Program-made: the position numbers and the translations under genes | The notes under the pieces: generated by a model | What the model saw: the letters and a program-made list of their open reading frames with translations, nothing else | Database searches by the model: none | Told to the model about the DNA's origin: nothing | Source: Alphaproteobacteria bacterium | GTDB lineage: Bacteria; Pseudomonadota; Alphaproteobacteria; Rs-D84 | Direction of reading: 5' to 3' | Assembly: GCA_017463185.1 (NCBI GenBank) | Contig: JAFTPS010000003.1 | Coordinates: 27,113 to 91,112, forward strand | DNA: 64,000 nucleotides | Part shown: positions 43,096-56,114 of the stretch, in pieces | Layout of the letters: every line of letters begins with the position of its first letter | Position numbering within the stretch: position 1 is the first letter of the stretch

Positions 43096-44808
43096 TTATC
43101 TGGTTCCACCAAAGCCCAATTCAACATTTATATTACCGTCACCGCCATTGTCATTAGGACGCCAATTTCCATTATCGTTGACCCATTCCCAGTCAGAAGA
43201 ATTATCCAGGCTATAACGCATTGTTGCGGTGGCTTCAGTTGGGGTGTTATTATCCCCATAATATCCAGCAGTAAATGCCATAGTTTCAGAATCCTTGCTG
43301 ATTAGGTTGCCTTGGTTATCAAATTCAGGTACAACATTATTGTCGCTGGTCAACCCAGATGCTGATGTCACAAGTGTAAAATCATATGTTCGCAAGCTGC
43401 CATCGCCATCAACATCAAATGTTTTTGTTACACGGTCATTATCGTTTGTTTTACCATCACCATTTCTGTCACCAAAAACAACCAATTTATTTGTACCATC
43501 TGCGGATTGCACAGCTTGAATTTTATACCAATTGTCTGAAAAATCTGCGGTTAGTGTTTGGGTGCCTGTATTATCAAATACCAATGTAGCATTGGTATCG
43601 GTCATCATATCGTCTGTCAACGGCACATCAATACCATTTCCATTATATGCCAAACCATCGCGATATCTGACATCTGCAAATGCGGTTCCTGTAAATGTTA
43701 TACTGCCATCATTTGCCAATGTTTTCATATCTTCATTTGATATTTTCTTGGACGCATATCCACCAGCAAAAGGAGTAATCATAACACCCCAAGCATCCAA
43801 AAATTCTCGCACTTCCTGTTTACCTGCATCGTTCAATCCTGTTGTGGCAAACGTTGCGTTTTTAAAATCATTTTTCATGATACCAAAATCGGCATATTTC
43901 AGTCCCAGTTGTTTGCCATAACTGATATATTCGTCATACAATTCAAGATTGATGCTGCCACTAGCGTCGGTTATATTTTCTGTGGATACAATATTTGCAT
44001 CTGGATCTTCGTCGTTCATTTGACTCAAAGGAATCATACTTGCTTGGACAAAGATATTTGTATTATCCCGACGCACAATCACACCATCTGTATCATCATC
44101 AACTGGATATTCAGGCGAACCATCGTCATCATATCTCGTAAAACTGACAGAACCATCATCGTTATGAACCAGATAATCTGGATATTCATACGATACAATT
44201 TTACCATTTTTATCAACATTAAACTTGATTCTTTGCATTTGTGATGTGTATAAGTCCACACCATCCAATGTCATAATTTCTGTTCTTTGTTGCAGGTCTG
44301 CCAACGTTTTTTCAAAATTACTTTCCTTGATACGGCGTGCGGTCTCGGTTGCGTCACCACCGACAAAGCAATACATATCATCCATCAGCTTCAATGCAGA
44401 TTTAATTTTGTTTTTATCCAATTTTGATTTGTTGAACATTTCAACAATATCGCTTTCAGATGTTGTGTCTTCAACCAGCCAAGCCGCCAAATCAATCAAT
44501 TCACGCGCTGTGTCATATTCTGTATCCCCTGTTGGGGTTTTAGGCACAAACGCCCCGCGGGTTGTCGCAACACGTGATAAATTTACATCAGCCGCATAAT
44601 CACCCAATTTATGCGCAACATAACGTGCAACCTGATATTCACTGTTTGAAACCATACCTGTAATTTCTGAATTACTGGTCGCAACCGTATCAACAAATGA
44701 AGAGTTTGGAACAACTGGTTTTTCAAGCATCGCTGGGGCAGAACCACCACCTGAACCGCCACAAGCCGCCAATGCCAAAACAGAGGTTAAAAATGCAATT
44801 TTTTTCAT
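43096..44808 (-). CDS. surface lipoprotein (SLP-type; lipobox LAACGGSGGGS)
   Basis: MKKIAFLTSVLALAACGGSGGGSAP: lipobox followed by flexible Gly/Ser linker typical of Slam-dependent surface lipoproteins; 570 aa. Confidence 0.55.
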   Translation of the reverse strand: MKKIAFLTSVLALAACGGSGGGSAPAMLEKPVVPNSSFVDTVATSNSEITGMVSNSEYQVARYVAHKLGDYAADVNLSRVATTRGAFVPKTPTGDTEYDTARELIDLAAWLVEDTTSESDIVEMFNKSKLDKNKIKSALKLMDDMYCFVGGDATETARRIKESNFEKTLADLQQRTEIMTLDGVDLYTSQMQRIKFNVDKNGKIVSYEYPDYLVHNDDGSVSFTRYDDDGSPEYPVDDDTDGVIVRRDNTNIFVQASMIPLSQMNDEDPDANIVSTENITDASGSINLELYDEYISYGKQLGLKYADFGIMKNDFKNATFATTGLNDAGKQEVREFLDAWGVMITPFAGGYASKKISNEDMKTLANDGSITFTGTAFADVRYRDGLAYNGNGIDVPLTDDMMTDTNATLVFDNTGTQTLTADFSDNWYKIQAVQSADGTNKLVVFGDRNGDGKTNDNDRVTKTFDVDGDGSLRTYDFTLVTSASGLTSDNNVVPEFDNQGNLISKDSETMAFTAGYYGDNNTPTEATATMRYSLDNSSDWEWVNDNGNWRPNDNGGDGNINVELGFGGTR

Positions 44809-44940
44809 TTAATATCCTTTCTGGAATATGTTGTGAATGTTTTCACAAAGCAATAATTAAATCAACCGCTTTTGCGCATCTTACCAATGCACCAGGTCCA
44901 TAGAGAAAGAAAAAAACAAAAAACTTTACAAACAGGAAAT

Positions 44941-45003
44941 CCAAACTGCAACACCAACATAAAAATAAAACGCCCGCATGGGGCGTTTGATTTTTGTGGC
45001 GGA
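44941..45003. repeat. 63-nt direct repeat (copy A) = tRNA-Ser 3'-end (8 nt) + 3' flank incl. terminator hairpin; candidate attL
   Basis: caaactgcaacaccaacataaaaataaaacgcccgcatggggcgtttgatttttgtggcggag; 60/63 identical to 56115-56177 which ends inside tRNA-Ser. Confidence 0.6.
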
Positions 45004-45132
45004 GTATGATTTTATTACGAACCCTCGCATACAAATTCCAATTTTACAGGGAATTTACAGGGATTTGTCCACTATAAAACTCTTGTATTTTTCATATAAA
45101 ATCCTATATGCAATAATAAAGGATAAATAGAC

Positions 45133-45810
45133 ATGAATATTGATGACATTATAAACGCATTTTATAAACTGCATGATTATAAGGGAAAATTCAGATTTAA
45201 TACCCCAGAATATATCAGTTTCCATAGGAATCTCACGGATTTTATCTATGAAAACCACCTGGAAGATACTATGTATTGGAAGAAAATATCCGACAATTTA
45301 TTGTATACAGCAACGGAATATATGACACTGCGAGAAGCTGGCATTATATCAAAAAATCTAGAACTTTTACGACGCCATATTTTACAGACTCGAGACGAAC
45401 CTTTCTGGAAGTATATCCATCCTTTGTTATCGCCAATAACACAACCAAAATTCCAAGCACAACAATATGCCGATTGTGTAGAATCTGCATTCAAGGAAAT
45501 TAACTCTAGGTTAAAAGAGTTATATCTTAAATTGCGAAATACGGAACTAGACGGCAGCACCCTAATGAATCATGTATTTTCGCCTAATAACCCGGTGTTA
45601 ACTTTTGAGAACATAGAAACACAGACTGGCAAAGATGTCCAAATTGGATATATGAACATATTTGCTGGCGCAATGACAGGCATAAGAAACCCCAAGGCAC
45701 ACGGAAATCAGATTATATCGAAGGACATGGCTATAAAGCGATTGATTTTTGCTAGTTTATTAATGGACAAAATAGATGAAGCCATATCGTATTCCAACAT
45801 AGAAGAATGA
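45133..45810 (+). CDS. hypothetical protein, possibly TIGR02391/Hypoth_Ymh family (abortive-infection-like)
   Basis: C-terminal ..FAGAMTGIRNPKAHGNQ.. resembles conserved RNxxAHG block of Ymh family; assignment from memory, low certainty. Confidence 0.35.
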   Translation: MNIDDIINAFYKLHDYKGKFRFNTPEYISFHRNLTDFIYENHLEDTMYWKKISDNLLYTATEYMTLREAGIISKNLELLRRHILQTRDEPFWKYIHPLLSPITQPKFQAQQYADCVESAFKEINSRLKELYLKLRNTELDGSTLMNHVFSPNNPVLTFENIETQTGKDVQIGYMNIFAGAMTGIRNPKAHGNQIISKDMAIKRLIFASLLMDKIDEAISYSNIEE

Positions 45811-45908
45811 TTATATCGCAATAAAGCCGATGTGCTATCTGGGAAAAATATTGACTTTCTGGGAATTATCTGGTAACATCTGGGAAAAATTATAAAAAGA
45901 GTATAAAG

Positions 45909-46967
45909 ATGCCAAATAACCGCGATATTATGATTACACCAGAAATACTGAACGGTATTGCCGAGATTGATGCGTTTAATGGTGCGTGGACCGGTGGGGC
46001 GGTAAAACTGTCCGCGGATGAACTGCGTGTTATGCGCAGGGTCGCAACGATTGAATCTGTTGGCTCATCCAATCGCATAGAAGGCAACCGTATGACAGAT
46101 GCAGAGATTGAAGTGCTATTCGCTAATATCAATCGTCAGTCATTTGCCACACGTGATGAGCAGGAAGTTGCAGGCTATTCAGATGTAATCAATACCATAT
46201 TTGAAAACTATGCGTCTATACCGCTTAGCGAGAATTATATTAAGCAGTTGCATAAAATATTATTGAATTACTCTGACAAGGACACCCGCCATCGTGGGGA
46301 ATATAAAAAAGACAGTAATCGTGTTGCCGCTTTTGATGCAAACGGTAATGAAATCGGTTCTATATTCGAAACCGCTATACCATTTGATACTCCACGTCTG
46401 ATGAGCGAAACAGTAAAATGGGTCAATGACGCATTGGCAGACAAGTTCTTTCACCCTATTATTGCTATTGGGGTATTTGTGATACACTTTCTGTCCATCC
46501 ACCCATTTACCGATGGAAACGGGCGTCTGTCACGCGCATTGACTGTTATGCTGATGCTGAAAAGTGGATACACATATATGCCATATGCATCTATGGAATC
46601 TATTATAGAAGCAACCAAGGACGCATACTATCGTGCATTACGCGGCACACAAAAAAACATCTGGGGCGACAAAATCAATTATGAACCTTGGCTGACTTTC
46701 TTTGTTCGTGCCTTGGTTGCACAAAAGCGCCAATTGGAAGATAAAATTGCGAAGGCACGTGGCACAAGTGCCGCAAAATTATCATCTACTCAGAATGAGA
46801 TTCTGAAACTGTTTTATAAAGCACCAGAATTGACCATGTCACAGATTATATCTGCGATGGATAAAAATCCAGAAACCATTCGCAAGGCGGTACAGGCACT
46901 GGTAAAACGAGGACACATATCAAAGCAAGGCACGACCCGTGGCGTGTTTTACACTTTGCATAAATAA
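45909..46967 (+). CDS. fic: Fic/Doc family protein
   Basis: Canonical Fic motif HPFTDGNGRLSRAL; C-terminal winged-helix-like region. Confidence 0.8.
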   Translation: MPNNRDIMITPEILNGIAEIDAFNGAWTGGAVKLSADELRVMRRVATIESVGSSNRIEGNRMTDAEIEVLFANINRQSFATRDEQEVAGYSDVINTIFENYASIPLSENYIKQLHKILLNYSDKDTRHRGEYKKDSNRVAAFDANGNEIGSIFETAIPFDTPRLMSETVKWVNDALADKFFHPIIAIGVFVIHFLSIHPFTDGNGRLSRALTVMLMLKSGYTYMPYASMESIIEATKDAYYRALRGTQKNIWGDKINYEPWLTFFVRALVAQKRQLEDKIAKARGTSAAKLSSTQNEILKLFYKAPELTMSQIISAMDKNPETIRKAVQALVKRGHISKQGTTRGVFYTLHK

Positions 46968-47055
46968 CCCATAGCCCGCTGCAAAAACAGCGGGGATAAT
47001 TTCTATATTCTTTGCGGCCTACGCGGAATGGATTAATCATCTATGAAGAACGTAT

Positions 47056-47883
47056 ACCATAGCTCGCATTTCAAATCGTCTTTGATATAATTATGGCGTC
47101 AACGATTCGCCACAATCGCGCGTTATAGGTTGCTTCTCAAATCGTCTTTGATATAATTACAGTTGTTGAATATATGCCCGGCAAGACGTTATAGGTTGCT
47201 TCTCAAATCGTCTTTGATATAATACATGTGTTTATACATGGTTGCCTCTGCGCGTTATAGGTTGCTTCTCAAATCGTCTTTGATATAATGCAGATAATTA
47301 AAAATAGCAGTTGCAATCAGTTATAGGTTGCTTCTCAAATCGTCTTTGATATAATAAACGTTGACAATGATTTAGGAGTTGGTGCGTTATAGGTTGCTTC
47401 TCAAATCGTCTTTGATATAATTGTCTTGCGACCCAATGCATACGCACCAGCGTTATAGGTTGCTTCTCAAATCGTCTTTGATATAATACAACTTGAATTG
47501 CCGTTACACAGTACATAGTTATAGGTTGCTTCTCAAATCGTCTTTGATATAATAAACGTTGAAAATGATTTAGGAGTTGGGGCGTTATAGGTTGCTTCTC
47601 AAATCGTCTTTGATATAATGCCCGGTTCTTGTCAACCCTAACGCATTCGGTTATAGGTTGCTTCTCAAATCGTCTTTGATATAATGACCATATATCTTTG
47701 ATGCCGAATTGGAAAGTTATAGGTTGCTTCTCAAATCGTCTTTGATATAATAAGGGGCGTGAAGACTATGGAAGATTTGTTGTTATAGGTTGCTTCTCAA
47801 ATCGTCTTTGATATAATCGTGATGTATGTAAATCGCAACGCGGGTGCGTTATAGGTTGCTTCTCAAATCGTCTTTGATATAAT
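47056..47883 (+). CRISPR. CRISPR array, 13 repeats (first degenerate) of 36 nt GTTATAGGTTGCTTCTCAAATCGTCTTTGATATAAT, 30-nt spacers
   Basis: Perfect 66-nt periodicity from 47122; repeats at 47122, 47188, 47254, 47320, 47386, 47452, 47518, 47584, 47650, 47716, 47782, 47848; degenerate repeat 47056-47091 keeps 3' 21 nt; each repeat ends in extended -10 box TGATATAAT. Confidence 0.95.
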
Positions 47884-47987
47884 AGACACACAAAAAAACC
47901 GCTGATATTCTGCGGTTTTTTGTGTCTATACCGTCAAAAAAATACGTCTGTTTTTGATAAATTCTATTGATTCGTTTTATTTTTTTC

Positions 47988-48317
47988 TTAAAACATCAAC
48001 ATCTGTTGCGTGCCGATTTTTTCGGCAACTGGTGGTGAACCAACCAAGAAAAACATATCTGCAAATTGCTTTTCTGTGACAGTTAACACACGAACCGACC
48101 CTGATGGTGGTGCCAAGTGACGCAAACGCTGAACATGCTTGTCAACTGCAGCAGCCCCTTTGACCATGCGAGAATATATAGAGAACTGCATCATATAATA
48201 CCCGTCGTTTAACAAATCGTTTCTGAACCGTGTGGCTGCATGGCGTTCACGCCGTGTACCAACCGGCAAATCAAAAAATACTAGTATTCGCATAAACTTT
48301 TCCCCTGATTGATACAT
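47988..48317 (-). CDS. cas2: CRISPR-associated endoribonuclease Cas2
   Basis: ..MRILVFFDLPVGTRRERHAATRFRNDLLNDGYYMMQFSIYSR.. Cas2 fold; alternative start MRIL at 48293. Confidence 0.8.
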   Translation of the reverse strand: MYQSGEKFMRILVFFDLPVGTRRERHAATRFRNDLLNDGYYMMQFSIYSRMVKGAAAVDKHVQRLRHLAPPSGSVRVLTVTEKQFADMFFLVGSPPVAEKIGTQQMLMF

Positions 48318-48318
48318 A

Positions 48319-49233
48319 TTAGTTATCCGTATTTACAATTTTAGGCGCAGATGTAATACAAGGTAATTTTAAGGCTTGTAAATCCTTGGCCTTGAAAGAT
48401 GACGCAATTGATTCTGAATACAACGGTATCGCATTCATAATAGAATGCCGCATACCATTAAACGTGCAACTGTGCAACAAGACAGATACTAATTGTCGCT
48501 TGATATCCGGCGTCAATTTGTCTGCGTCGCCAAAATCCATATTAAACACAATATAATCCAGAAAAGGACGCCACGGTTCAATCAAATCATCAGCCAGACA
48601 AAAATTATCCAGCTTATTGCAATGATGTATACCATAAAACGGCAACATACCCGCGCCAACAATACTGCGCGCGACACATCCACGCAAAATCGCATAACCA
48701 TAATCCAGCGCATGATTGCGAATATCATTGTCATTACTGCGATTGAAATTTTCCCATAATGCCGACCAATAAATACGCGCAGCAACCCCTTCTAGGTTTT
48801 GAGCGTCGCCTGATTTAACATTATCTGCCAAAATATCTAGCTTTTTATACACAGCATTGTCGCACAGTCGTAATACCGCAGATTGATTGCGAATTTTTTG
48901 CACAACGATATTTTGCCACATACGTTTGCGCAGTGGCTGCGACGTTTCTATCTGAGCCCAGGCAGTTTCTGTGTAGCGTGAATTTTTATGAAACGGAAAG
49001 AACGCGCCATTCGGCATATGCGATGCATCACAGGAAAATACAACAGCGCCGTTTTCCGCCAACGACGACAATAATGTGGACGTTATCTGAATTTGCGGTG
49101 ACTCTAAAATGACGACAGAAATATCTTCTAGTGGGACGTTTTGTGTTTCACCACTGTCTGCCGTCCAGTTTAATTGTTTATTCCTGACACAAATCCGCGA
49201 CGGTTTGGACAGGGTAAGAATGCGCCAAGACAT
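48319..49233 (-). CDS. cas1: CRISPR-associated endonuclease Cas1 (type II)
   Basis: 304 aa, Cas1 conserved residues, between cas9 and cas2. Confidence 0.85.
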   Translation of the reverse strand: MSWRILTLSKPSRICVRNKQLNWTADSGETQNVPLEDISVVILESPQIQITSTLLSSLAENGAVVFSCDASHMPNGAFFPFHKNSRYTETAWAQIETSQPLRKRMWQNIVVQKIRNQSAVLRLCDNAVYKKLDILADNVKSGDAQNLEGVAARIYWSALWENFNRSNDNDIRNHALDYGYAILRGCVARSIVGAGMLPFYGIHHCNKLDNFCLADDLIEPWRPFLDYIVFNMDFGDADKLTPDIKRQLVSVLLHSCTFNGMRHSIMNAIPLYSESIASSFKAKDLQALKLPCITSAPKIVNTDN

Positions 49234-49286
49234 TTGAATGCCCCGTATTTGTATCCTTTCCCCCAGTCCAAATGTTATATAGTGCG

Positions 49287-52208
49287 TTATTTTTTATTTA
49301 CAACTGGCATACGCTTTTCCGGCAATTTTACATCGCGTATCGCCCCCAACACAGTGACAAAGCACTTTTTTATTTCGGTGCACATTCCGACTGATTTTTT
49401 AACAACTTGGATATTTTTATTATCTTGGCGATATAATATAAAATTTGTTCCATGGTCCATTTGGGTTATGTATCCTTCATACTCTTCGTCTGTACGGGTT
49501 TTGATTTTTATATAATCATCTTTGTGCAGGGTGCAGACGAATTCTGCATCGGGGACAATGAATTTTGTATCATCCCCAGACACAGTATCTGATACAAATA
49601 TCGGCACACAGGTGTATTTGCCTGTGTTCGTCCGCCAAATATCAAAACGAAACATATCGCCACGAACAGCGTTGCCAAAACGTATTTTTATACTGCCCTT
49701 GGCCCCCATTGTATTTTTCCCTTTCTTGGTGCGATACGATCTGGGATTTATATAAATCGTTTCGTTATGCGCAGATCCTGTGGCGTTGCAACGTGGTGGA
49801 CGCGAAACTGTAATCATATCCAACGCAGCCAGCACATCATTACGGAAAGTAGGCCATGGCGACTGTATGGCAGTTTTTAATTTTTTATACCATGCTTCGC
49901 CATTTTCGCCTATTAACCTGCCCTTGTTCTCAAACTTGCCAGACAAGGTTGACAGATAACGAACCATTTCTTGGGTAGCGCAAGCAATTACTATGGCATC
50001 TTGGGCATGATGTTTATCAGACTCTTCGCGGTTCTTGCTTAGCCCCCATTGATGACGAAGATAGTCCGTCAACGCCCCCGTACGAACCAGCACACGCATT
50101 TTGCCGTCATTTGTTGTTGACCATTTTATGCCTTGGGTCAAGTACTGGGCTGCAAAACGTGCAATCGTTGCATTGTCGTTCGCATTGCGGGCAATAAAGT
50201 CATTTTGTTCATCGCTGCTTTGTGGCAAATCTGTGTTTGTCAGTTTTCTGAACTTGGCCATATTATGATAACCGCGTGCACGCAGAGTCATTTCATAAAA
50301 CTGATTAGCATCCAAATATTCAGACGGGGTTTTGCTGCCTTTGGCCTGATTACAGGCGCGACAGACCAATACTTTGTTAGATTGCGAATTGTCCAATGAA
50401 CGTGAGTACGGCAAGATATGATCAATTTCATACGCATCCCAATTATTCGCATCAATAGATGCGCCACAATATGGACATTGACAATGCTGCTCCATATACA
50501 GTTTGTATTTTTTGGCATTTTTACCATGTTCTTGAAGCGCCGCTTCGTTCGCGGCACGATTTCGTTCATTTTCTTTTTGTAATAGTGCCAATTCTTTGGG
50601 GGACTTTTTTAATTCACGCCCTATCTCCAAATGAATTCTGTCAGGTGTGCCATAGCGATACACCATCGCATTATAAACACGACGTAATTGTGACAATGTA
50701 CGACGTGCCACAGGCGATGTTAAGCGTTTGCCCAGAACCGACCAATCTATCTGGCGCAACATGCCGTCTGCAACATCATCAGACATATCAATAAAACTAT
50801 CGCCTGTGCTGCGATGGTCCCAATCATTTATTTTGCACGCATCGGCATACGTTTTGCCCGCACGCATTTCTGGGATAAGTTTGTTTAATGCAGACAACGA
50901 TAAATTCAAAAATTCAGACGTACTTAGTTGTGAAATCGCATCTGCGTGTTCAGGCAAGAATTCAGACACTCCTTTTTTTATGCGTCCTGGCGTTTTCTCG
51001 GTCGCCAAAACTTCATATATTTTATCCATCAAAGCGATGTTATTGGTATACGGCAACAAGGTATGATAGCCACTAAACTTGCTAAACACGACTTTTTCAA
51101 CATCTGCAATTTTTGGTTCAACCCAAATTTTTTGTTCTTTGTCGTATTTACGTGAATAATTCAGTGCCTTGAACCGATACTCGTCATCAAATTGTAATAA
51201 TTTACGGACATCCGAATATTTTAAACCTGTTTTCTTTTTGTATAATTCTGCCAAAACTAATTCTATTTGGTCAGGCGTCAAACCGTTTTGATTGCACGTT
51301 GATAACGCCACAAACAACTGGGCAGATGGCGCCCCCTTGGGCGCAACAGGTTCACCGGTAAATTTGCACGCCCCACGCATAGATGCAACAGAACGATATA
51401 ATGGCGAATCTGATTCATTGAACTTGCGCTGACGCGAGGCAATCGGATACCACGCATCAAATACCGCAGTAAAATCATTGCCAAACGTTTTTTGTGCCGC
51501 CAATATCATTCGTGCTTCACGGAAAATTTCAGAACGAGGAATGGAATTTGTATAGGTGGATTCTTCACTTGTTTTTGCCTCGCCCTTTGCGCTGATTTTT
51601 GTGATGGTCTTTTTTTGGTTGCGCATTTGAGCCGGATTTTTTGCATACAAAACCTGACATAATGTTTTGTTGTCGCCCGATTGGCGCAACAAAGCCAGAT
51701 TATCCGCAATACAACCAATCGCCTTTAACTCTTCTTTGGCATCTGGGCTGTCTGTATCCGCTGTTTTAGCCACATCAACAGGATATGTAATATCGTCATA
51801 CCCACGATGCTTGGCCAAATGGTATAAAACACGACCTGTTTCACGTGGTGTTAATTTCCGCTGAAACGCATCAACCGCACGCAAACGCCAGATGTTTATA
51901 TCTGTGTCACGGTTTAGATAAAAATTATTGTGACCGTTTTTCTTGGGCTCTGGAATGTCTATTAAATTTGCAGATCGCAACAATGCACGAATTTGACGCA
52001 TACGCAACGCACGATGACGTAGGCGACGCCGCATACCACGGGCAACACGTCTGTCAGCGGCATTTGTCGCAGCAGTAAAGCAGCGTACGCCACACCCCAA
52101 GATTTTACTGCCCACAAAACCTTGATTTTCGTCTACTGTGTCTGACATTTCTATTGTAGCCCACCCAATACTGGCGACCCCTAAATCAAAACCGAATATT
52201 CTAGCCAT
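49287..52208 (-). CDS. cas9: Cas9, compact type II-C (973 aa)
   Basis: RuvC-I MARIFGFDLGVASIGWATIE; HNH ..YEIDHILPYSRSLDNSQSNKVLVCRACNQAKGS..; arginine-rich bridge helix after RuvC-I. Confidence 0.95.
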   Translation of the reverse strand: MARIFGFDLGVASIGWATIEMSDTVDENQGFVGSKILGCGVRCFTAATNAADRRVARGMRRRLRHRALRMRQIRALLRSANLIDIPEPKKNGHNNFYLNRDTDINIWRLRAVDAFQRKLTPRETGRVLYHLAKHRGYDDITYPVDVAKTADTDSPDAKEELKAIGCIADNLALLRQSGDNKTLCQVLYAKNPAQMRNQKKTITKISAKGEAKTSEESTYTNSIPRSEIFREARMILAAQKTFGNDFTAVFDAWYPIASRQRKFNESDSPLYRSVASMRGACKFTGEPVAPKGAPSAQLFVALSTCNQNGLTPDQIELVLAELYKKKTGLKYSDVRKLLQFDDEYRFKALNYSRKYDKEQKIWVEPKIADVEKVVFSKFSGYHTLLPYTNNIALMDKIYEVLATEKTPGRIKKGVSEFLPEHADAISQLSTSEFLNLSLSALNKLIPEMRAGKTYADACKINDWDHRSTGDSFIDMSDDVADGMLRQIDWSVLGKRLTSPVARRTLSQLRRVYNAMVYRYGTPDRIHLEIGRELKKSPKELALLQKENERNRAANEAALQEHGKNAKKYKLYMEQHCQCPYCGASIDANNWDAYEIDHILPYSRSLDNSQSNKVLVCRACNQAKGSKTPSEYLDANQFYEMTLRARGYHNMAKFRKLTNTDLPQSSDEQNDFIARNANDNATIARFAAQYLTQGIKWSTTNDGKMRVLVRTGALTDYLRHQWGLSKNREESDKHHAQDAIVIACATQEMVRYLSTLSGKFENKGRLIGENGEAWYKKLKTAIQSPWPTFRNDVLAALDMITVSRPPRCNATGSAHNETIYINPRSYRTKKGKNTMGAKGSIKIRFGNAVRGDMFRFDIWRTNTGKYTCVPIFVSDTVSGDDTKFIVPDAEFVCTLHKDDYIKIKTRTDEEYEGYITQMDHGTNFILYRQDNKNIQVVKKSVGMCTEIKKCFVTVLGAIRDVKLPEKRMPVVNKK

Positions 52209-52313
52209 TTATGCCCCCTTGGGTTATGTTATACATTATATAGTGCAAATGTGAATAAATGCAAATTTTATCCGAGACTTGATTTTTATGATTAGTTGGT
52301 TATAATACGGGTA

Positions 52314-52425
52314 TAGAAATCTTTATTCAACGGACGATTTGAGAAGCAACCGTTTATATAATAAAGAATATTTTCTGTGGAGTAACAATTTAAGTATCTC
52401 CGGGGGCTTCGGCCCCGTTTTTATT
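52314..52425 (+). ncRNA. tracrRNA (predicted)
   Basis: Anti-repeat GACGATTTGAGAAGCAACC (52333-52351) is exact reverse complement of repeat nt 7-25; sigma70-like promoter ttgatt-16-tataat at 52279-52306; ends in hairpin ccgggggcttcggccccg + ttttt; divergent from cas9. Confidence 0.6.
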
Positions 52426-52441
52426 AAAAAGGCATAAAAAT

Positions 52442-52906
52442 ATGGCGAAGCTATTTCTGATATGTGGATTTTTGGGTGCGGGCAAAACGACTGTTTCAAA
52501 ACAACTGGCGAAACAATATAACGCAGAATATATGAACGTTGATAGCCATGTGACGCAACTGTTTGCGCGGGACGAATATGAACACAATTGGGAAAAATGT
52601 TTTAGCATAGCAGAAGATGATTTGTGGCAAAAAATTAAACTGTGTGCCCAGTCAGACACTGATGTTGTTTTCGATGTCGGATTTTGGACACGTAAATCGC
52701 GCGACATGGCTAGCGCACGAGCCAGACAAATCGGGATGACGCCAATTGTATATTATGTTTATGCCCCAGACGAAATATTAAAGAAACGTATCGCGCAACG
52801 TTCTGGCCGAATTGCAGAAAATAACATCAAAAACTTTGACACAATCAAACAAATGTTTGAAAACCCCCAAGTAGATGAAGATTTTGTGCAAGTTGATAAT
52901 TTTTAA
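52442..52906 (+). CDS. P-loop kinase (AAA_33/zeta-toxin-like NTPase fold)
   Basis: Walker A LICGFLGAGKTTVSKQLA; 154 aa. Confidence 0.5.
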   Translation: MAKLFLICGFLGAGKTTVSKQLAKQYNAEYMNVDSHVTQLFARDEYEHNWEKCFSIAEDDLWQKIKLCAQSDTDVVFDVGFWTRKSRDMASARARQIGMTPIVYYVYAPDEILKKRIAQRSGRIAENNIKNFDTIKQMFENPQVDEDFVQVDNF

Positions 52907-53106
52907 TACCACACGACGCTTGACCGTTTTTTTGCGGAAATTATTGGCAAGAATCTCTGCGGGATAACTTATCTATTTCTTGAAACAAAACTTTTTGCGG
53001 GCTTACTGTCCATTGTTTTATCTAAGTCAAATTTTGACGGGTACAATGATATTTTATGATTGCATTTAGAAAATTCCATATCAGAATAATAAAAAAGGAC
53101 GAATTA

Positions 53107-53613
53107 TGAGAAAGACACCCCTGCTTGATGACATAACAAATGTTTATTTAGAAAAATTGAAAAAGCTTTATAATGCACCCCCGTTGCTTTTTATACGTTT
53201 ATTGAAACACTAATACAAAAACCACTTGTTGGGCTGACCTTTTCAAACAAGACATAATGTGTAAAATTACCAGAAAGAAAAAATATATCCCGCAATAATT
53301 TGGCATCCGTACTACGAGGTCTTTATCCTGAGCAATCAGGAAACATTGCTAAATCAAGAAACCTTAAAAAAATACATTGATTTAATTACAGATGAGGTCA
53401 TTTTCCACAAATCATCCTTGTTGCCGCAAACAAATATAATATGAAAACCATCTTATCCCAATTGACTGATATTTTGCCGGCAAAAACAGACAGCATGAAC
53501 TATAATCTATCTGTTATTACGGATGCGGAATTTAATCAAGCGTACGCCGCCGCAAAAGGCGCCGCCATTAAAGAGGCATTAACAAAAATCAGCCGTCTAA
53601 AAAAACAAGTTTA
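53107..53613 (+). pseudogene. decayed gene (multiple frameshifts/stops)
   Basis: Four short ORF fragments in different frames (MRKTPLLDDITNVYLEKLKKLYNAPPLL..., ...NNLASVLRGLYPEQ..., ...MKTILSQLTDILPAKTDSMNYNLSVITDAEF...) span a 700-bp stretch with no intact gene. Confidence 0.25.
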
Positions 53614-54303
53614 ATCTTTGTACTTGGGTGGGATTTCAAGATACAGACACTGAAATTTCTCACCAGACACATTAGAAACCATCAAAAAGTCTCGCCATTC
53701 AAAGTCATATGTGTTTTTGATATCTAAGTCAGGACGAGTTTTTTGTATTTCTGCAATTCTTTGTTCGGAGCAGCGATTTGTCGACTTCCATTTTTTCTCG
53801 CCTCGCTCATGCGTACCGCCCTCTATAGAAAAATTTGAGTAAATTGTGTTTTCATGTGCTTTCTTATAATTCGGTGCATTTGTTAAAAAAATACATACGC
53901 CCGCTTCGCACTCGTTCTTCTCTATCAAACATTCGGTTCTATTAATATCTGCCCAAAAGTCATACGCCCCAAAATCGTAAGCACTATGATCTTTTAATAG
54001 CGCACAAGCAAGCTTGCTATCATCATCAATACTTGGCGCATGTTTTATTGATTGCGTTTTGTATTTTAATTCAATTATATATTTTTTACCGTTATCTTTT
54101 ATTAAAATATCCGCATAAATATGATCACCTTTGGTCGTCTTAACTGTATCAGGTTTTTTGATCGGATATTCCAATCTAACATTACCAGGGAACTTTTCTT
54201 CCAGCACCATTGCAAATGAATGTTGAAAATCTGCCTCGGACACAAAAACACGTTTTTCTAAATCGTTAAATGCTTCTTTTATCTTTTTTAATACATCACT
54301 CAT
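53611..54303 (-). CDS. PD-(D/E)xK nuclease-like protein
   Basis: ..YADILIKDNGKKYIIELKYK.. fits D-x(n)-ExK catalytic core. Confidence 0.4.
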   Translation of the reverse strand: MSDVLKKIKEAFNDLEKRVFVSEADFQHSFAMVLEEKFPGNVRLEYPIKKPDTVKTTKGDHIYADILIKDNGKKYIIELKYKTQSIKHAPSIDDDSKLACALLKDHSAYDFGAYDFWADINRTECLIEKNECEAGVCIFLTNAPNYKKAHENTIYSNFSIEGGTHERGEKKWKSTNRCSEQRIAEIQKTRPDLDIKNTYDFEWRDFLMVSNVSGEKFQCLYLEIPPKYKD

Positions 54304-54312
54304 ACCACACCC

Positions 54313-54573
54313 TTATTTCAACAAATCAGCACATTCATGCAGTTTTATCGCATGCTTATAACTGATTTCAAACTTACGCTGAACATCTGTTATGTTTGGT
54401 TCTTTTTCAAGAATATAGCTTATTGCATTTTTTTGCAAGTCTATGTAATCGGCATACTTGGTTGCCAGTCCATCTACTAATTTGGTCACACCGTCTTCTG
54501 AAATATATGCTGGATGAATACGTTCTGGCTGTTGCGATCGTATACTATATACCGCATCACCGTACGACCACAA
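54313..54573 (-). CDS. small hypothetical protein (partner of nuclease-like gene)
   Basis: 86-aa ORF 9 nt upstream of nuclease-like gene. Confidence 0.3.
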   Translation of the reverse strand: MWSYGDAVYSIRSQQPERIHPAYISEDGVTKLVDGLATKYADYIDLQKNAISYILEKEPNITDVQRKFEISYKHAIKLHECADLLK

Positions 54574-55137
54574 AGTTAAAGCATTGGCATCCGCCCCAAG
54601 AATTTTTTTTCAACTCATTTTTTGGCATATCAAATACAAATCGTGTATCAAAGCATGATGCGTGCAGACGGTTTTCGTGAGATGTCCTGGTATCTGTTCC
54701 AGTGGACCGGCAAAATACGCCCAATTGCACCGAAGGAATTGGTCAGTACCTATAACAGCATTTTGAAAGACATCATCCTGAACAGCCAGTCTGGCAAGTA
54801 AGTCATTTTTGGTCTGGGTCGATTTTTCTAATTTAATTTTGCTGAAATACCTGTTAAAGTTGCTTTGTAAGCAAAGCCCCCAATTCAGAACGAGAAAAGG
54901 GAGGTCTGTTTTCGTAGCACCTAGGGTTGAGTAAAACTCCCTTTTGCATCTTTGCTTGCGTTCCTGCGAGAGGGCGAATTCTAATAATACCAGTCATCGC
55001 AGACGGTCACCAAATCTGCTGTCACGAAAGTTATATAACGACAAAGGCATACGTTTTGTTAACCAACACGCATGCTCCAAAGATAAGGTCGGCCCATATT
55101 ACTATGCGACACGGGGGGCTATCTGCCAGCTGCACAG

Positions 55138-55359
55138 GTGGACGAAATAACCATGTCTATTGTAGCCGAATTTCTGGGCAGCGATATGAGCGCCCTGCGC
55201 CATATTTATAAACACCTGTCGCTGGCATATCTGAACCCAGAAGTCGTAAATCATATATTGAGTAATCAATGTCATATATCTGTTCGCGATATGTTGGACA
55301 AGGCATCACGCAGCAATGACTTTGCTGAACGGAAAAGGTTATTTACCGCCTATTTATAA
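55138..55359 (+). pseudogene. possible tyrosine-recombinase C-terminal remnant
   Basis: ..ALRHIYKHLSLAYLNPEVVNHILSNQCHISV.. loosely resembles integrase box II (LRH..A..L...G......LGH) but lacks catalytic Tyr; preceded by ~550 bp without ORFs. Confidence 0.2.
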
Positions 55360-55407
55360 TTGCATTTTATTACCTCGCTTTTTATAATCATATAAAGTGA
55401 GGTTGAT

Positions 55408-55824
55408 ATGAAAATAGCATTTTTGATTTTTCCTTTATTTCTTGTTGCCTGTGCGGAACAATCTTTTATACAGAAGATAAGTGCACCATCAGAAACAATC
55501 CACAATGAAAAGTGTGCAGAGATTCAAAAATATAGAATTTTTCAAGTTATTGATAATGGTTCATTGGCCATGGCTTGCGAAAACACATATGGCATTGAAT
55601 CGTGTATGGGCTTAACTGTGTTTATTCCAAAAGAAAAAGGTAAAATATATTATGACGACATGATTGTCGGACCATCAACTGATAAGTGCATAACCTATGC
55701 TGATGTTTATCGCTATACAACAAATCGTGGTGATACTAAAACAGTTCCAAAAATCAAATTTGAAAACAAAGACATTCCAAACCCCGCTTTTGTAGAATGG
55801 GAAAAAACACAATCTAATCAATAA
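55408..55824 (+). CDS. lipoprotein (lipobox LVAC)
   Basis: MKIAFLIFPLFLVACAEQ signal/lipobox; RBS gaggt. Confidence 0.5.
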   Translation: MKIAFLIFPLFLVACAEQSFIQKISAPSETIHNEKCAEIQKYRIFQVIDNGSLAMACENTYGIESCMGLTVFIPKEKGKIYYDDMIVGPSTDKCITYADVYRYTTNRGDTKTVPKIKFENKDIPNPAFVEWEKTQSNQ

Positions 55825-55982
55825 AATTGCCACGGTGGTTTTGGCCATTGTATGTAAGTGGTGGGGATATTCGGTTATTTGATAACTTCGTTGTACATAC
55901 TGGTAACCTTGCGGGGGAAAAGTGGCGGAAGTGTGGCTAAAAACAAAGCCCCGACAGATATTGTCGGGTTTTTGATTATTTC

Positions 55983-55996
55983 TGGCGGAGACGAAG
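55983..55996. repeat. 14-nt partial copy of tRNA-Ser 3' end (tggcggagacgaag)
   Basis: Identical to 56170-56183; third occurrence of tggcggag with 45001 and the tRNA itself. Confidence 0.4.
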
Positions 55997-56114
55997 TATT
56001 CCCTCGCCCCGCGGATGGCGGGGCTGCGGGGCATTCCTGACGGTTTGACGATGTTTCACTTGTCAAACCTACTCATTGTCGAACCCGGCAATCATAGATT
56101 GCGAACGTTTCGTC

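What the first reader, a model, noticed from the sequence alone, without database searches (positions are those of the whole stretch)
47056..52425. Type II-C locus details: promoter-bearing repeats, divergent tracrRNA, near-duplicate spacers
(1) Every 36-nt repeat ends in TTGATATAAT, an extended -10 box (TGnTATAAT). That matches the repeat-embedded crRNA promoters described for Neisseria type II-C systems and implies crRNA transcription on the + strand, opposite to the cas genes, without a classical leader. (2) A predicted tracrRNA (about 52314-52425) has a 19-nt perfect anti-repeat, its own -35/-10 promoter and a terminator. It lies upstream of and divergent from cas9, immediately before the kinase gene. 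(3) Spacers at 47356-47385 and 47554-47583 differ at only 2 of 30 positions (aaacgttgaCaatgatttaggagttggTgc vs ..A..G..). This suggests repeated acquisition against variants of one target or primed-like resampling. (4) The degenerate repeat is at the cas-distal end (47056).
Basis: partly seen in the sequence, partly recalled or inferred. Interest (0 to 1): 0.55.

Follow-up and report, generated by a model that had tools for sequence, protein, structure and literature searches.

The report
Ordinary type II-C CRISPR-Cas9 locus
This is a complete, intact-looking type II-C CRISPR-Cas9 immune locus from an uncultured gut alphaproteobacterium, built like the well-studied Neisseria and Campylobacter systems, so it adds a new member rather than a new kind.

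Summary
All four observations are in the sequence. There are 13 repeats of 36 nt and 12 spacers of 30 nt at 47056-47883. Every repeat ends in TTGATATAAT. The cas-distal repeat is degenerate. Spacers S5 and S8 differ at 2 of 30 positions. A 19-nt perfect anti-repeat lies upstream of cas9 on the opposite strand.

Comparison with relatives supports the core reading.
- 24 of 29 distinct repeats from related type II-C loci end in TGnTAnnnT on the strand opposite cas9. None of 11 more distant loci (L056-L080, mostly Streptococcus) does.
- The anti-repeat sits at the same divergent position in nearly all relatives and co-varies with the repeat. Two downstream hairpins also show compensatory changes.
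- Sister lineages share only the cas-distal spacer, which fits spacer acquisition at the cas-proximal end, as in Neisseria.

One claim needs revision. In every near-identical sister strain that carries both copies, S5 and S8 differ at one position only (28, in the predicted seed). The window's second difference (47563) is a private change that arose inside the array. One strain has deleted exactly the block between the two copies.

One spacer, S6, matches a phage major-head gene at 27 of 30 positions. No transcription data exist.

Side observation: the tracrRNA 5' leader is complementary to the segment just after the anti-repeat in several lineages.

The parts
47056..47883 (+). CRISPR array: 13 repeats of 36 nt and 12 spacers of 30 nt. 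The + strand is the crRNA sense strand.
47056..47091 (+). Degenerate terminal (cas-distal, oldest) repeat. It has 7 mismatches in nt 1-15. Its last 21 nt, including TGATATAAT, are intact. It would supply only the promoter for spacer S1.
   Evidence: L001 and L002 also have degenerate cas-distal repeats that keep TTTGATATAAT.
47149..47157 (+). Example of the extended -10 box TGATATAAT (repeat nt 28-36). It recurs every 66 nt, from 47083-47091 to 47875-47883. A partial -35, TTGCTT, lies at repeat nt 9-14, 16 nt upstream. The predicted crRNA 5' end is about nt 6-8 of the following spacer.
   Evidence: start position by analogy with PMC12477760
47356..47385 (+). Spacer S5, AAACGTTGACAATGATTTAGGAGTTGGTGC. 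It is the older copy of the near-duplicate pair.
47554..47583 (+). Spacer S8, the near-duplicate of S5. The position-28 G is shared by all sister strains that carry this copy. The position-10 A (47563) is private to this window.
47422..47451 (+). Spacer S6. It matches a phage major-head-protein gene in IMG/VR contig L092 at 27 of 30 positions. The mismatches fall at third codon positions.
47884..47927 (.). 44-nt hairpin that folds on both strands, with U-tracts on both. It is a bidirectional terminator between the array and cas2, and the probable flank on the spacer-integration side.
47988..48317 (-). cas2 (109 aa)
   Evidence: TIGR01573
48319..49233 (-). cas1 (304 aa), type II NMENI class
   Evidence: TIGR03639, 280 bits
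49287..52208 (-). cas9 (973 aa), type II-C. The RuvC and HNH catalytic residues lie in invariant columns.
52279..52306 (+). tracrRNA promoter, TTGATT-16-TATAAT. Relatives have cTTGAC-17-TAtAAT at the equivalent place.
52313..52422 (+). Predicted primary tracrRNA, about 110 nt. Leader 52313-52331; anti-repeat 52333-52351; bulge 52352-52356; TATAAT 52357-52362; hairpin H1 52365-52376; hairpin H2 52379-52401; terminator 52403-52422.

Best explanation
The region is a complete type II-C CRISPR-Cas9 adaptive-immunity locus in an uncultured gut alphaproteobacterium. The cas9-cas1-cas2 operon runs on the - strand and ends at a bidirectional terminator hairpin.

The array is read on the + strand, towards the cas genes. 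Each repeat carries an extended -10 promoter (TGATATAAT) at its 3' end. Each spacer is therefore transcribed from the repeat before it, starting about 6-8 nt into the spacer. That would give a guide of about 24 nt followed by the next repeat (inferred).

A tracrRNA of about 110 nt is transcribed divergently from cas9. It pairs with repeat nt 1-25 and carries two Cas9-binding hairpins and a terminator. Its sequence, conservation and co-variation are shown here; its expression is inferred.

New spacers enter at the cas-proximal end and the degenerate cas-distal repeat marks the old end (inferred from spacer sharing between strains). S5 and S8 are most simply two acquisitions of one protospacer. 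The later copy differs at seed position 28, and the window has picked up one further private mutation in it.
For: Gene content:
- Cas9 hits TIGR01865 (549 bits), Cas1 hits cas1_NMENI and Cas2 hits TIGR01573.
- No csn2 or cas4 model matched any of the six ORFs scanned. No large ORF lies between cas2 and the array or between cas9 and the tracrRNA.
- The closest solved structures include the type II-C enzymes Nme (6jdq) and Cje (5x2g) Cas9; my assignment of these entries to organisms rests on my own knowledge.

Repeat promoters:
- 24 of 29 distinct repeats of related loci end in TGnTAnnnT on the anti-cas strand. The base n varies. None of 11 more distant loci (L056-L080, mostly Streptococcus) has it on either strand.

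tracrRNA:
- The anti-repeat is found upstream of and divergent from cas9 in nearly all relatives.
- Mean pairing energy of a repeat with its own anti-repeat is -37.5 kcal/mol, against -18.1 for cross pairs. A lineage's own tracrRNA is the best partner in 11 of 12 lineages.
- For H1 and H2, 92% of cells are paired and 5 of 10 pairs show compensatory changes. 0 of 500 shuffles reach this.
- The promoter and terminator lie on the + strand.
- G:U pairs (repeat G1 with tracrRNA U; AGGG:CCTT in H2) work only in this orientation.

Array boundaries and polarity:
- The hairpin between the array and cas2 folds on both strands (z = -5.9 and -6.7).
- L001 and L002 share only the cas-distal spacer. Sister strains with collapsed arrays keep only S1.

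Target:
- S6 matches a phage major-head gene.

Literature:
- Repeat-embedded promoters and arrays read opposite to cas are published for Neisseria and Campylobacter, and Neisseria crRNAs start at the 6th spacer nt (PMC5965381, PMC3737331, PMC12477760).
Against: There is no transcript evidence of any kind.

The generic sigma-70 scan did not list the repeat promoters, because their -35 matches only 3 of 6 positions.

Conservation of the repeat's 3' end could also reflect Cas1-Cas2 recognition of the repeat ends. GTTATA and TATAAT are partly inverted repeats, so promoter function is not the only possible constraint.

The PAM is unknown. Only one credible protospacer was found. Six other spacers gave nothing in IMG/VR (one search covered S5 and S8), none matched the phage or plasmid collections, and S11's 22-nt match is inconclusive.

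No strain was seen with a newly added spacer, so the acquisition polarity is indirect.
Confidence: 0.85

Rival explanations
1. The array is transcribed on the - strand as a read-through of the cas operon or from a cas-proximal leader, as in type II-A. On this view the TATAAT ends of the repeats are kept only as integrase recognition motifs.
For: The degenerate repeat is at the cas-distal end. Generic CRISPR tools read that as the trailer end of an array transcribed from the cas side, a pitfall noted in PMC3737331. The repeat ends are partly palindromic.
Against: - A strong terminator hairpin lies between cas2 and the array.
- A - strand tracrRNA would have no terminator and would run into cas9.
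- The conserved tracrRNA promoter, hairpins H1 and H2, and the terminator are all on the + strand, with compensatory changes.
- The conserved G1:U pair would become an A:C mismatch in the other orientation.
- TG at -15/-14 is conserved while the base between it and the -10 hexamer varies, and in this lineage TG is not part of the inverted repeat.
Confidence: 0.05
2. S5 and S8 arose by duplication of a repeat-spacer unit inside the array, through recombination or replication slippage, and then diverged. They would not be two acquisitions.
For: The ancestral state differs at only 1 of 30 positions, and a further point change has since arisen in place (47563). So mutation within the array does occur. 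The two 102-nt units do recombine: L083 lacks s5-s6-s7.
Against: Only a single spacer is duplicated. The two copies are separated by two unrelated spacers, whereas unequal recombination normally duplicates a contiguous block. The shared difference lies in the PAM-proximal seed (position 28), where a phage escape mutation would be expected. Repeated uptake of one PAM-flanked site is a simple event.
Confidence: 0.25
3. The locus is a decaying or silent remnant, with no active immunity.
For: Several sister strains have arrays collapsed to one spacer. No protospacer with a perfect match was found.
Against: All three cas ORFs are intact. The catalytic residues are invariant. Twelve repeats are identical. 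The tracrRNA is conserved and co-varies with the repeat. Spacer content differs between lineages.
Confidence: 0.07

Closest known systems
Neisseria meningitidis type II-C CRISPR-Cas9 (Zhang et al. 2013, as summarised in PMC5965381 and PMC12477760)
   Same: A minimal cas9-cas1-cas2 operon and 36-nt repeats. Each repeat ends in an extended -10 box. The array is read opposite to the cas genes. The old, degenerate end is cas-distal, and the integration side is at the crRNA-3' end of the array. The expected guide is about 24 nt from a 30-nt spacer.
   Different: The Cas9 here is shorter (973 aa against 1082 aa for the Nme entries in the PDB) and only distantly related: the match covers residues 4-794, and the C-terminal PAM-interacting part is not matched. 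From my own knowledge, the Nme tracrRNA lies between cas9 and cas1; here it is upstream of and divergent from cas9. The host is an uncultured gut alphaproteobacterium. The PAM is unknown.
Campylobacter jejuni type II-C CRISPR-Cas9 (Dugar et al. 2013, cited in PMC5965381; Chylinski et al. 2013, PMC3737331)
   Same: A compact Cas9 of similar size. Promoters lie inside the repeats and the array is read opposite to cas. From my own knowledge of the Cje guide RNA, its anti-repeat is also followed by ...AAUAAAG... and a short first hairpin.
   Different: The match to the CjCas9 structure 5x2g is weak (E = 1e-49, N-terminal half only). In C. jejuni the main tracrRNA 5' end lies within the anti-repeat (PMC3737331). 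Here a leader of about 19 nt precedes it.
Type II tracrRNA locus architectures (Chylinski et al. 2013, PMC3737331)
   Same: 'Upstream of cas9' is one of the four typical anti-repeat positions. The present tracrRNA passes all four steps of their prediction workflow: an anti-repeat, an intergenic position, repeat pairing, and a promoter plus terminator.
   Different: Nothing essential differs. The lineage (gut Alphaproteobacteria / 'Rickettsiales' MAGs) is not mentioned in the passages of that paper that I read.

Membership tests
Type II-C CRISPR-Cas | The cas operon holds only cas9, cas1 and cas2, with no csn2 or cas4 | tested here: met
   cas9 is at 49287-52208, cas1 at 48319-49233 and cas2 at 47988-48317. 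The array follows directly after a terminator. Upstream of cas9 are only the tracrRNA and an unrelated P-loop kinase.
Type II-C CRISPR-Cas | Cas9 carries RuvC and HNH domains and is most similar to known II-C enzymes | tested here: met
   TIGR01865, 549 bits. D8, H597, N620, H733/H734 and D737 are invariant; the best solved matches include Nme (6jdq) and Cje (5x2g) Cas9. No phylogenetic tree was built.
Type II-C CRISPR-Cas | A tracrRNA with an anti-repeat complementary to the repeat | tested here: met
   A 19-nt perfect core plus 6 bp across a bulge gives -38.8 kcal/mol. It co-varies with the repeat in 11 of 12 lineages.
Processing-independent crRNA biogenesis (Neisseria/Campylobacter type) | A promoter (extended -10) inside every repeat, at its 3' end | tested here: met
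   13 of 13 repeats have it; 24 of 29 related repeats have it, against 0 of 11 in the more distant loci L056-L080. This is sequence evidence only.
Processing-independent crRNA biogenesis (Neisseria/Campylobacter type) | Primary (5'-triphosphate) crRNA 5' ends that map inside the spacers | not testable with these tools
   This needs dRNA-seq or primer extension on this organism or on the cloned locus.
Processing-independent crRNA biogenesis (Neisseria/Campylobacter type) | The array is transcribed opposite to the cas operon | tested here: met
   This is inferred from the strand of the tracrRNA. Its promoter, co-varying hairpins, terminator and G:U pairs are all on the + strand. The terminator between cas2 and the array agrees. 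There are no RNA data.
Processing-independent crRNA biogenesis (Neisseria/Campylobacter type) | RNase III is dispensable for interference | not testable with these tools
   This needs a genetic experiment.
Spacer acquisition at the cas-proximal (crRNA-3') end, as in Neisseria | Variable spacers at the cas-proximal end and shared old spacers at the cas-distal end | tested here: inconclusive
   L001 and L002 share only the cas-distal spacer. Collapsed arrays keep S1. This is consistent with the model, but no strain with a newly added spacer was seen.

The most novel reading that the evidence does not exclude
The primary tracrRNA of this Cas9 lineage may be self-closed. Its leader of about 19 nt pairs with the segment just 3' of the anti-repeat, which includes the 5' arm of the first Cas9-binding hairpin. 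The anti-repeat would then sit in a loop. Pairing with a crRNA repeat would force this helix open and let the Cas9-binding hairpin form. If so, tracrRNA loading onto Cas9 would depend on crRNA supply. That would bear on the recent finding that free Cas9 senses crRNA abundance (PMC12477760). The complementarity recurs with different sequences in several lineages. It could equally be a stabilising 5' stem or a by-product of the overlapping divergent cas9 promoter.
Probability: 0.15. Interest if true: 0.55.

Novelty: new member of a known kind. Interest (0 to 1): 0.22.

Why it matters
The locus adds a compact Cas9 (973 aa) to the type II-C catalogue. It comes with a well-defined repeat, a tracrRNA with a supported secondary structure, and a set of natural relatives from 88% down to 28% identity. 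That is enough to design a single-guide RNA and run a PAM screen.

It also shows that repeat-embedded extended -10 promoters and the divergent tracrRNA upstream of cas9 are properties of a whole clade of Cas9 loci. That clade includes gut Alphaproteobacteria and, by the MAG labels, Campylobacterales, Clostridia and Coriobacteriia. These features are not peculiar to Neisseria and Campylobacter.

The strain series gives a small natural example of array dynamics: a full array, an internal deletion between the near-duplicate spacers, and collapse to one spacer.

None of this changes current understanding.

Tried and rejected
- Rfam scan of 44000-56000 at E <= 1. It found no tracrRNA or CRISPR family. 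The one weak hit, ctRNA_pND324 (E = 0.49, below threshold), is simply the terminator hairpin.
- All 12 spacers against the phage and plasmid collections gave no match.
- S5/S8 in IMG/VR (an exact 27-nt pattern allowing C or A at position 10, then a degenerate pattern) and in JGI metagenomes (the same, 24 nt) gave nothing.
- A pattern with every third position degenerate gave two metagenome hits. One is a eukaryote-like sequence with stop codons and one is an unrelated small ORF. Both are judged chance matches.
- Six 22-nt spacer ends were searched in IMG/VR. Only S6 gave a credible hit. The S11 hit is 22 of 22 followed by 1 of 8, in a 238-kb AT-rich contig, and is left as inconclusive.
- No self-targets with up to 7 mismatches were found in the window. 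No window spacer is shared with the 80 related loci.
- RNAalifold on the raw MAFFT alignment found almost nothing, because the variable loops were misaligned. I replaced it with an anchored alignment and explicit pair counts.
- I considered whether the anti-repeat, read on the cas9 strand, keeps a repeat-type promoter that drives cas9. In the window the corresponding sequence, TGAATAAAG, is not a -10 box. In other lineages an ordinary overlapping divergent promoter is a sufficient explanation. I rejected the idea.
- I looked at the Neisseria scaRNA paper for an equivalent element. Nothing there bears on this locus.


Full report
**What is in the sequence**

The array spans 47056-47883 on the + strand. 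It has 13 repeats of 36 nt at a 66-nt period and 12 spacers of 30 nt. Twelve repeats are identical: GTTATAGGTTGCTTCTCAAATCGTCTTTGATATAAT. The 23-nt repeat core occurs 12 times in the window and never in 100 shuffles.

The first repeat (47056-47091) is the cas-distal one. It has 7 mismatches, all within its first 15 nt. All 13 repeats end in TTGATATAAT, which contains a perfect extended -10 box, TGnTATAAT. A partial -35 (TTGCTT, repeat nt 9-14) lies 16 nt upstream.

A 44-nt hairpin (47884-47927) follows the last repeat directly. It folds strongly on both strands (z = -5.9 and -6.7) and has U-tracts on both.

Three genes follow on the - strand: cas2 (47988-48317), cas1 (48319-49233) and cas9 (49287-52208, 973 aa). 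NCBIfam assigns them to Cas2, type II Cas1 (NMENI) and Cas9 (TIGR01865, 549 bits). There is no csn2 or cas4. The RuvC and HNH catalytic residues lie in invariant columns of the family alignment. The nearest solved structures include the type II-C enzymes Nme (6jdq) and Cje (5x2g) Cas9. Those matches cover only about residues 4-800, so the PAM-interacting end is not matched.

**Source organism**

The best Cas9 relatives are 88% identical and come from goat-gut Alphaproteobacteria MAGs. Next come relatives at 60-73% from human and animal gut 'Alphaproteobacteria/Rickettsiales' MAGs. After that, identity drops to 46% and below.

Contigs with 99.9% identity over 8 kb exist in several ENA and Logan assemblies.

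**The repeat promoters**

I extracted repeats from the related loci. On the strand opposite cas9, 24 of 29 distinct repeats from type II-C-like loci end in TGnTAnnnT, and four more have the -10 hexamer without the TG. None of the 11 distinct repeats from the more distant loci L056-L080 (mostly Streptococcus) has the motif on either strand.

The TG is conserved while the base after it varies among A, G, C and T. That pattern is the signature of an extended -10 element. In this lineage the TG is not part of the terminal inverted repeat (GTTATA/TATAAT). Integrase recognition of the repeat ends therefore does not fully explain the conservation, although it cannot be excluded as a second constraint.

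This arrangement is already published. In N. meningitidis and C. jejuni, crRNAs start from promoters embedded in each repeat (PMC5965381). In Neisseria they start at the 6th nt of each spacer (PMC12477760, Extended Data Fig. 4 legend). In both species the array is read opposite to the cas operon (PMC3737331). Here the same geometry predicts 5' ends about 6-8 nt into each spacer and a guide of about 24 nt. That step is inferred, not shown.

**The tracrRNA**

GACGATTTGAGAAGCAACC at 52333-52351 (+) is a perfect complement of repeat nt 7-25. A 5-nt bulge (GTTTA) follows. Then TATAAT (52357-52362) pairs with repeat nt 1-6, with G1 pairing as G:U. The whole duplex is predicted at -38.8 kcal/mol.

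Upstream lies TTGATT-16-TATAAT (52279-52306), which puts the start near 52313. Downstream lie three elements:
- hairpin H1, AGAA/TTCT (52365-52376);
- hairpin H2, GGAG...CTCC (52379-52401);
- a terminator, GGGGC-UUCG-GCCCC plus T5 (52403-52422).

The comparative evidence is strong:
- An anti-repeat lies at the same place, upstream of and divergent from cas9, in nearly all relatives down to about 28% Cas9 identity. It has a cTTGAC-17-TAtAAT promoter and an invariant TAYAATAA after it.
- It co-varies with the repeat. The mean energy of a repeat with its own anti-repeat is -37.5 kcal/mol, against -18.1 for cross pairs. A lineage's own tracrRNA is the best partner in 11 of 12 lineages.
- H1 and H2 show compensatory changes: AGAA:TTCT / ACTA:TAGT / ACA:TGT, and GGAG:CTCC / GGGG:CCCC / AAGG:CCTT. 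On an anchored alignment of 14 sequences, 92% of cells pair and 5 of 10 pairs change on both sides. 0 of 500 shuffles reach the observed values, and all slid controls score lower.

G:U pairs in the duplex and in H2 fit only the + strand. The terminator between cas2 and the array points the same way. Together these fix the crRNA sense as the + strand.

'Upstream of cas9' is one of the four usual anti-repeat positions (PMC3737331). Rfam has no matching family.

**Polarity of the array**

L001 and L002 are sister lineages with the same flanking Fic gene. They share only the spacer next to their degenerate cas-distal repeat, and their other spacers differ.

Near-identical strains of the window's own species carry three kinds of array:
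- the full 12-spacer array (L081, L082);
- an array that lacks s5-s6-s7 (L083);
- an array collapsed to S1 alone (L084, L086, L087).

The cas-proximal flank is the same kind of hairpin in all close relatives. This fits a cas-distal old end with integration at the cas-proximal end, the end to which PMC12477760 assigns the Neisseria leader. No strain with a newly added spacer was seen, so the polarity remains indirect.

In the window, L001 and L002, the degenerate terminal repeats have lost their tracrRNA-pairing half. All three keep TTTGATATAAT. That is what the S1 crRNA would need from the repeat upstream of it. Plain outer-edge decay of a terminal repeat would look the same.

**The near-duplicate spacers**

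In the window, S5 and S8 differ at positions 10 and 28. In every sister strain that has both copies (L081, L082, L085, L089), the second copy reads AAACGTTGACAATGATTTAGGAGTTGGGGC and differs from S5 at position 28 only. L083 and L088 carry that same form of the copy. L081 has one mismatch to the window in 8,000 nt, and it appears to be this site, 47563.

It does not reflect variation in the target.

The shared T/G difference is 3 nt from the repeat-proximal end of the spacer, which is the predicted PAM-proximal seed. The copy that carries G lies nearer the presumed integration end. This fits re-acquisition of the same protospacer from a seed-escape phage, but that is inference.

The L083 deletion removes exactly the block between the two 102-nt near-identical units. 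This shows that the two units recombine.

No target for S5/S8 was found in any collection. Two hits from a fully degenerate pattern are chance matches.

**Targets**

S6 matches IMG/VR contig L092 at 27 of 30 positions, with 23 contiguous matches at the 3' end. The three mismatches are at spacer positions 1, 4 and 7. Those are third codon positions of a gene that matches the PHROG family phrog_3437, a phage major head protein (E = 1.4e-72). Tail genes lie next to it, and the contig's GC content (about 42%) is close to the host's, which I estimate at about 40%. The 3' flank, GGCGGCAACA, is the only clue to the PAM.

S11 has a 22-nt exact match in a 238-kb AT-rich viral contig, but its first 8 nt are unrelated. 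I leave that match open.

The window contains no self-targets.

**Side observation**

The minimum-free-energy fold of the 113-nt transcript pairs the 5' leader (AUAGAAAUCUUUAUU) with AAUAAAGA....UUUUCUGU. That segment lies just after the anti-repeat and includes both arms of H1.

In other lineages both the leader and this segment differ in sequence but remain complementary. Examples are UAUAUUAGUU:AACUAAUAUA in L013 and AAAAAAUGUUAUUAU:AUAAUAAACAUUUUUU in L014.

- Against shuffled leaders, 8 of 13 lineages reach P <= 0.03.
- Against AT-matched genomic 22-mers, 12 of 13 lie in the best 15%, with P between 0.003 and 0.15. My rough Fisher combination over nine independent groups gives about 4e-5.

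A closed primary tracrRNA that crRNA pairing opens is one possible reading. It is untested, and I give it a low probability.

**Verdict**

The observations are confirmed and the core interpretation is supported. The spacer-pair explanation needs the refinement given above. This is a new member of a well-known kind of system, and nothing in it departs from the Neisseria/Campylobacter model.

Noticed in passing
window 52313-52331 with 52360-52378; also L003, L013, L014, L017, L020 and L021, upstream of cas9: The tracrRNA 5' leader is complementary to the segment just 3' of the anti-repeat, which includes the first hairpin. The MFE fold closes the anti-repeat into a loop. The complementarity recurs with different sequences in other lineages. 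P is 0.003-0.15 against AT-matched genomic background in 12 of 13 lineages.
   Followed up: partly
window 47563 (position 10 of spacer S8): This is a private C-to-A change. It appears to be the single mismatch between the window and sister contig L081 over 8,000 nt. All sister strains carrying this spacer have C here.
   Followed up: yes
L083, L084, L086, L087 (same species, 99-100% identical flanks): The strains show natural array dynamics. L083 lacks exactly s5-s6-s7, a deletion between the near-duplicate repeat-spacer units. L084, L086 and L087 have arrays collapsed to the degenerate repeat, S1 and one repeat.
   Followed up: yes
window 47422-47451 (S6); L092 4136-4165: S6 matches a phage major-head-protein gene (phrog_3437) at 27 of 30 positions. 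The mismatches are at third codon positions. The 3' flank, GGCGGCAACA, is the only clue to the PAM.
   Followed up: partly
window 47752-47781 (S11); L091 3292-3313: There is a 22-nt exact match to a 238-kb AT-rich IMG/VR contig, inside an ORF and in the same reading frame. The first 8 nt of the spacer are unrelated. It could be a chance match or a mosaic homologue.
   Followed up: partly
window 47884-47927: A 44-nt hairpin folds on both strands, and a hairpin of the same kind sits at this position in all close relatives. It acts as a bidirectional terminator and is probably the integration-side flank. It also caused the weak Rfam ctRNA_pND324 hit.
   Followed up: partly
window 45133-45810 and 45909-46967: A TIGR02391-family gene and a Fic-domain gene with a C-terminal winged-helix region lie next to the cas-distal end of the array. 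The Fic gene end is also seen beside the array in L001 and L002, and both genes in L081-L084, L086 and L087. This may be a defence-island neighbourhood.
   Followed up: no
L011, L013, L014, L021 (tracrRNA region upstream of cas9): In these lineages the second tracrRNA hairpin is followed directly by a T-run and seems to serve as the terminator as well, giving a tracrRNA of about 70 nt. The window's lineage also has a 5-nt bulge (GTTTA) in the anti-repeat that the other lineages lack.
   Followed up: no
L008 (contig CAVGNU010000026.1): This contig is labelled Bacteroides fragilis. It carries a Cas9 61% identical to the window's and nearly the same repeat as the alphaproteobacterial MAGs. It is probably mis-binned.
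   Followed up: no
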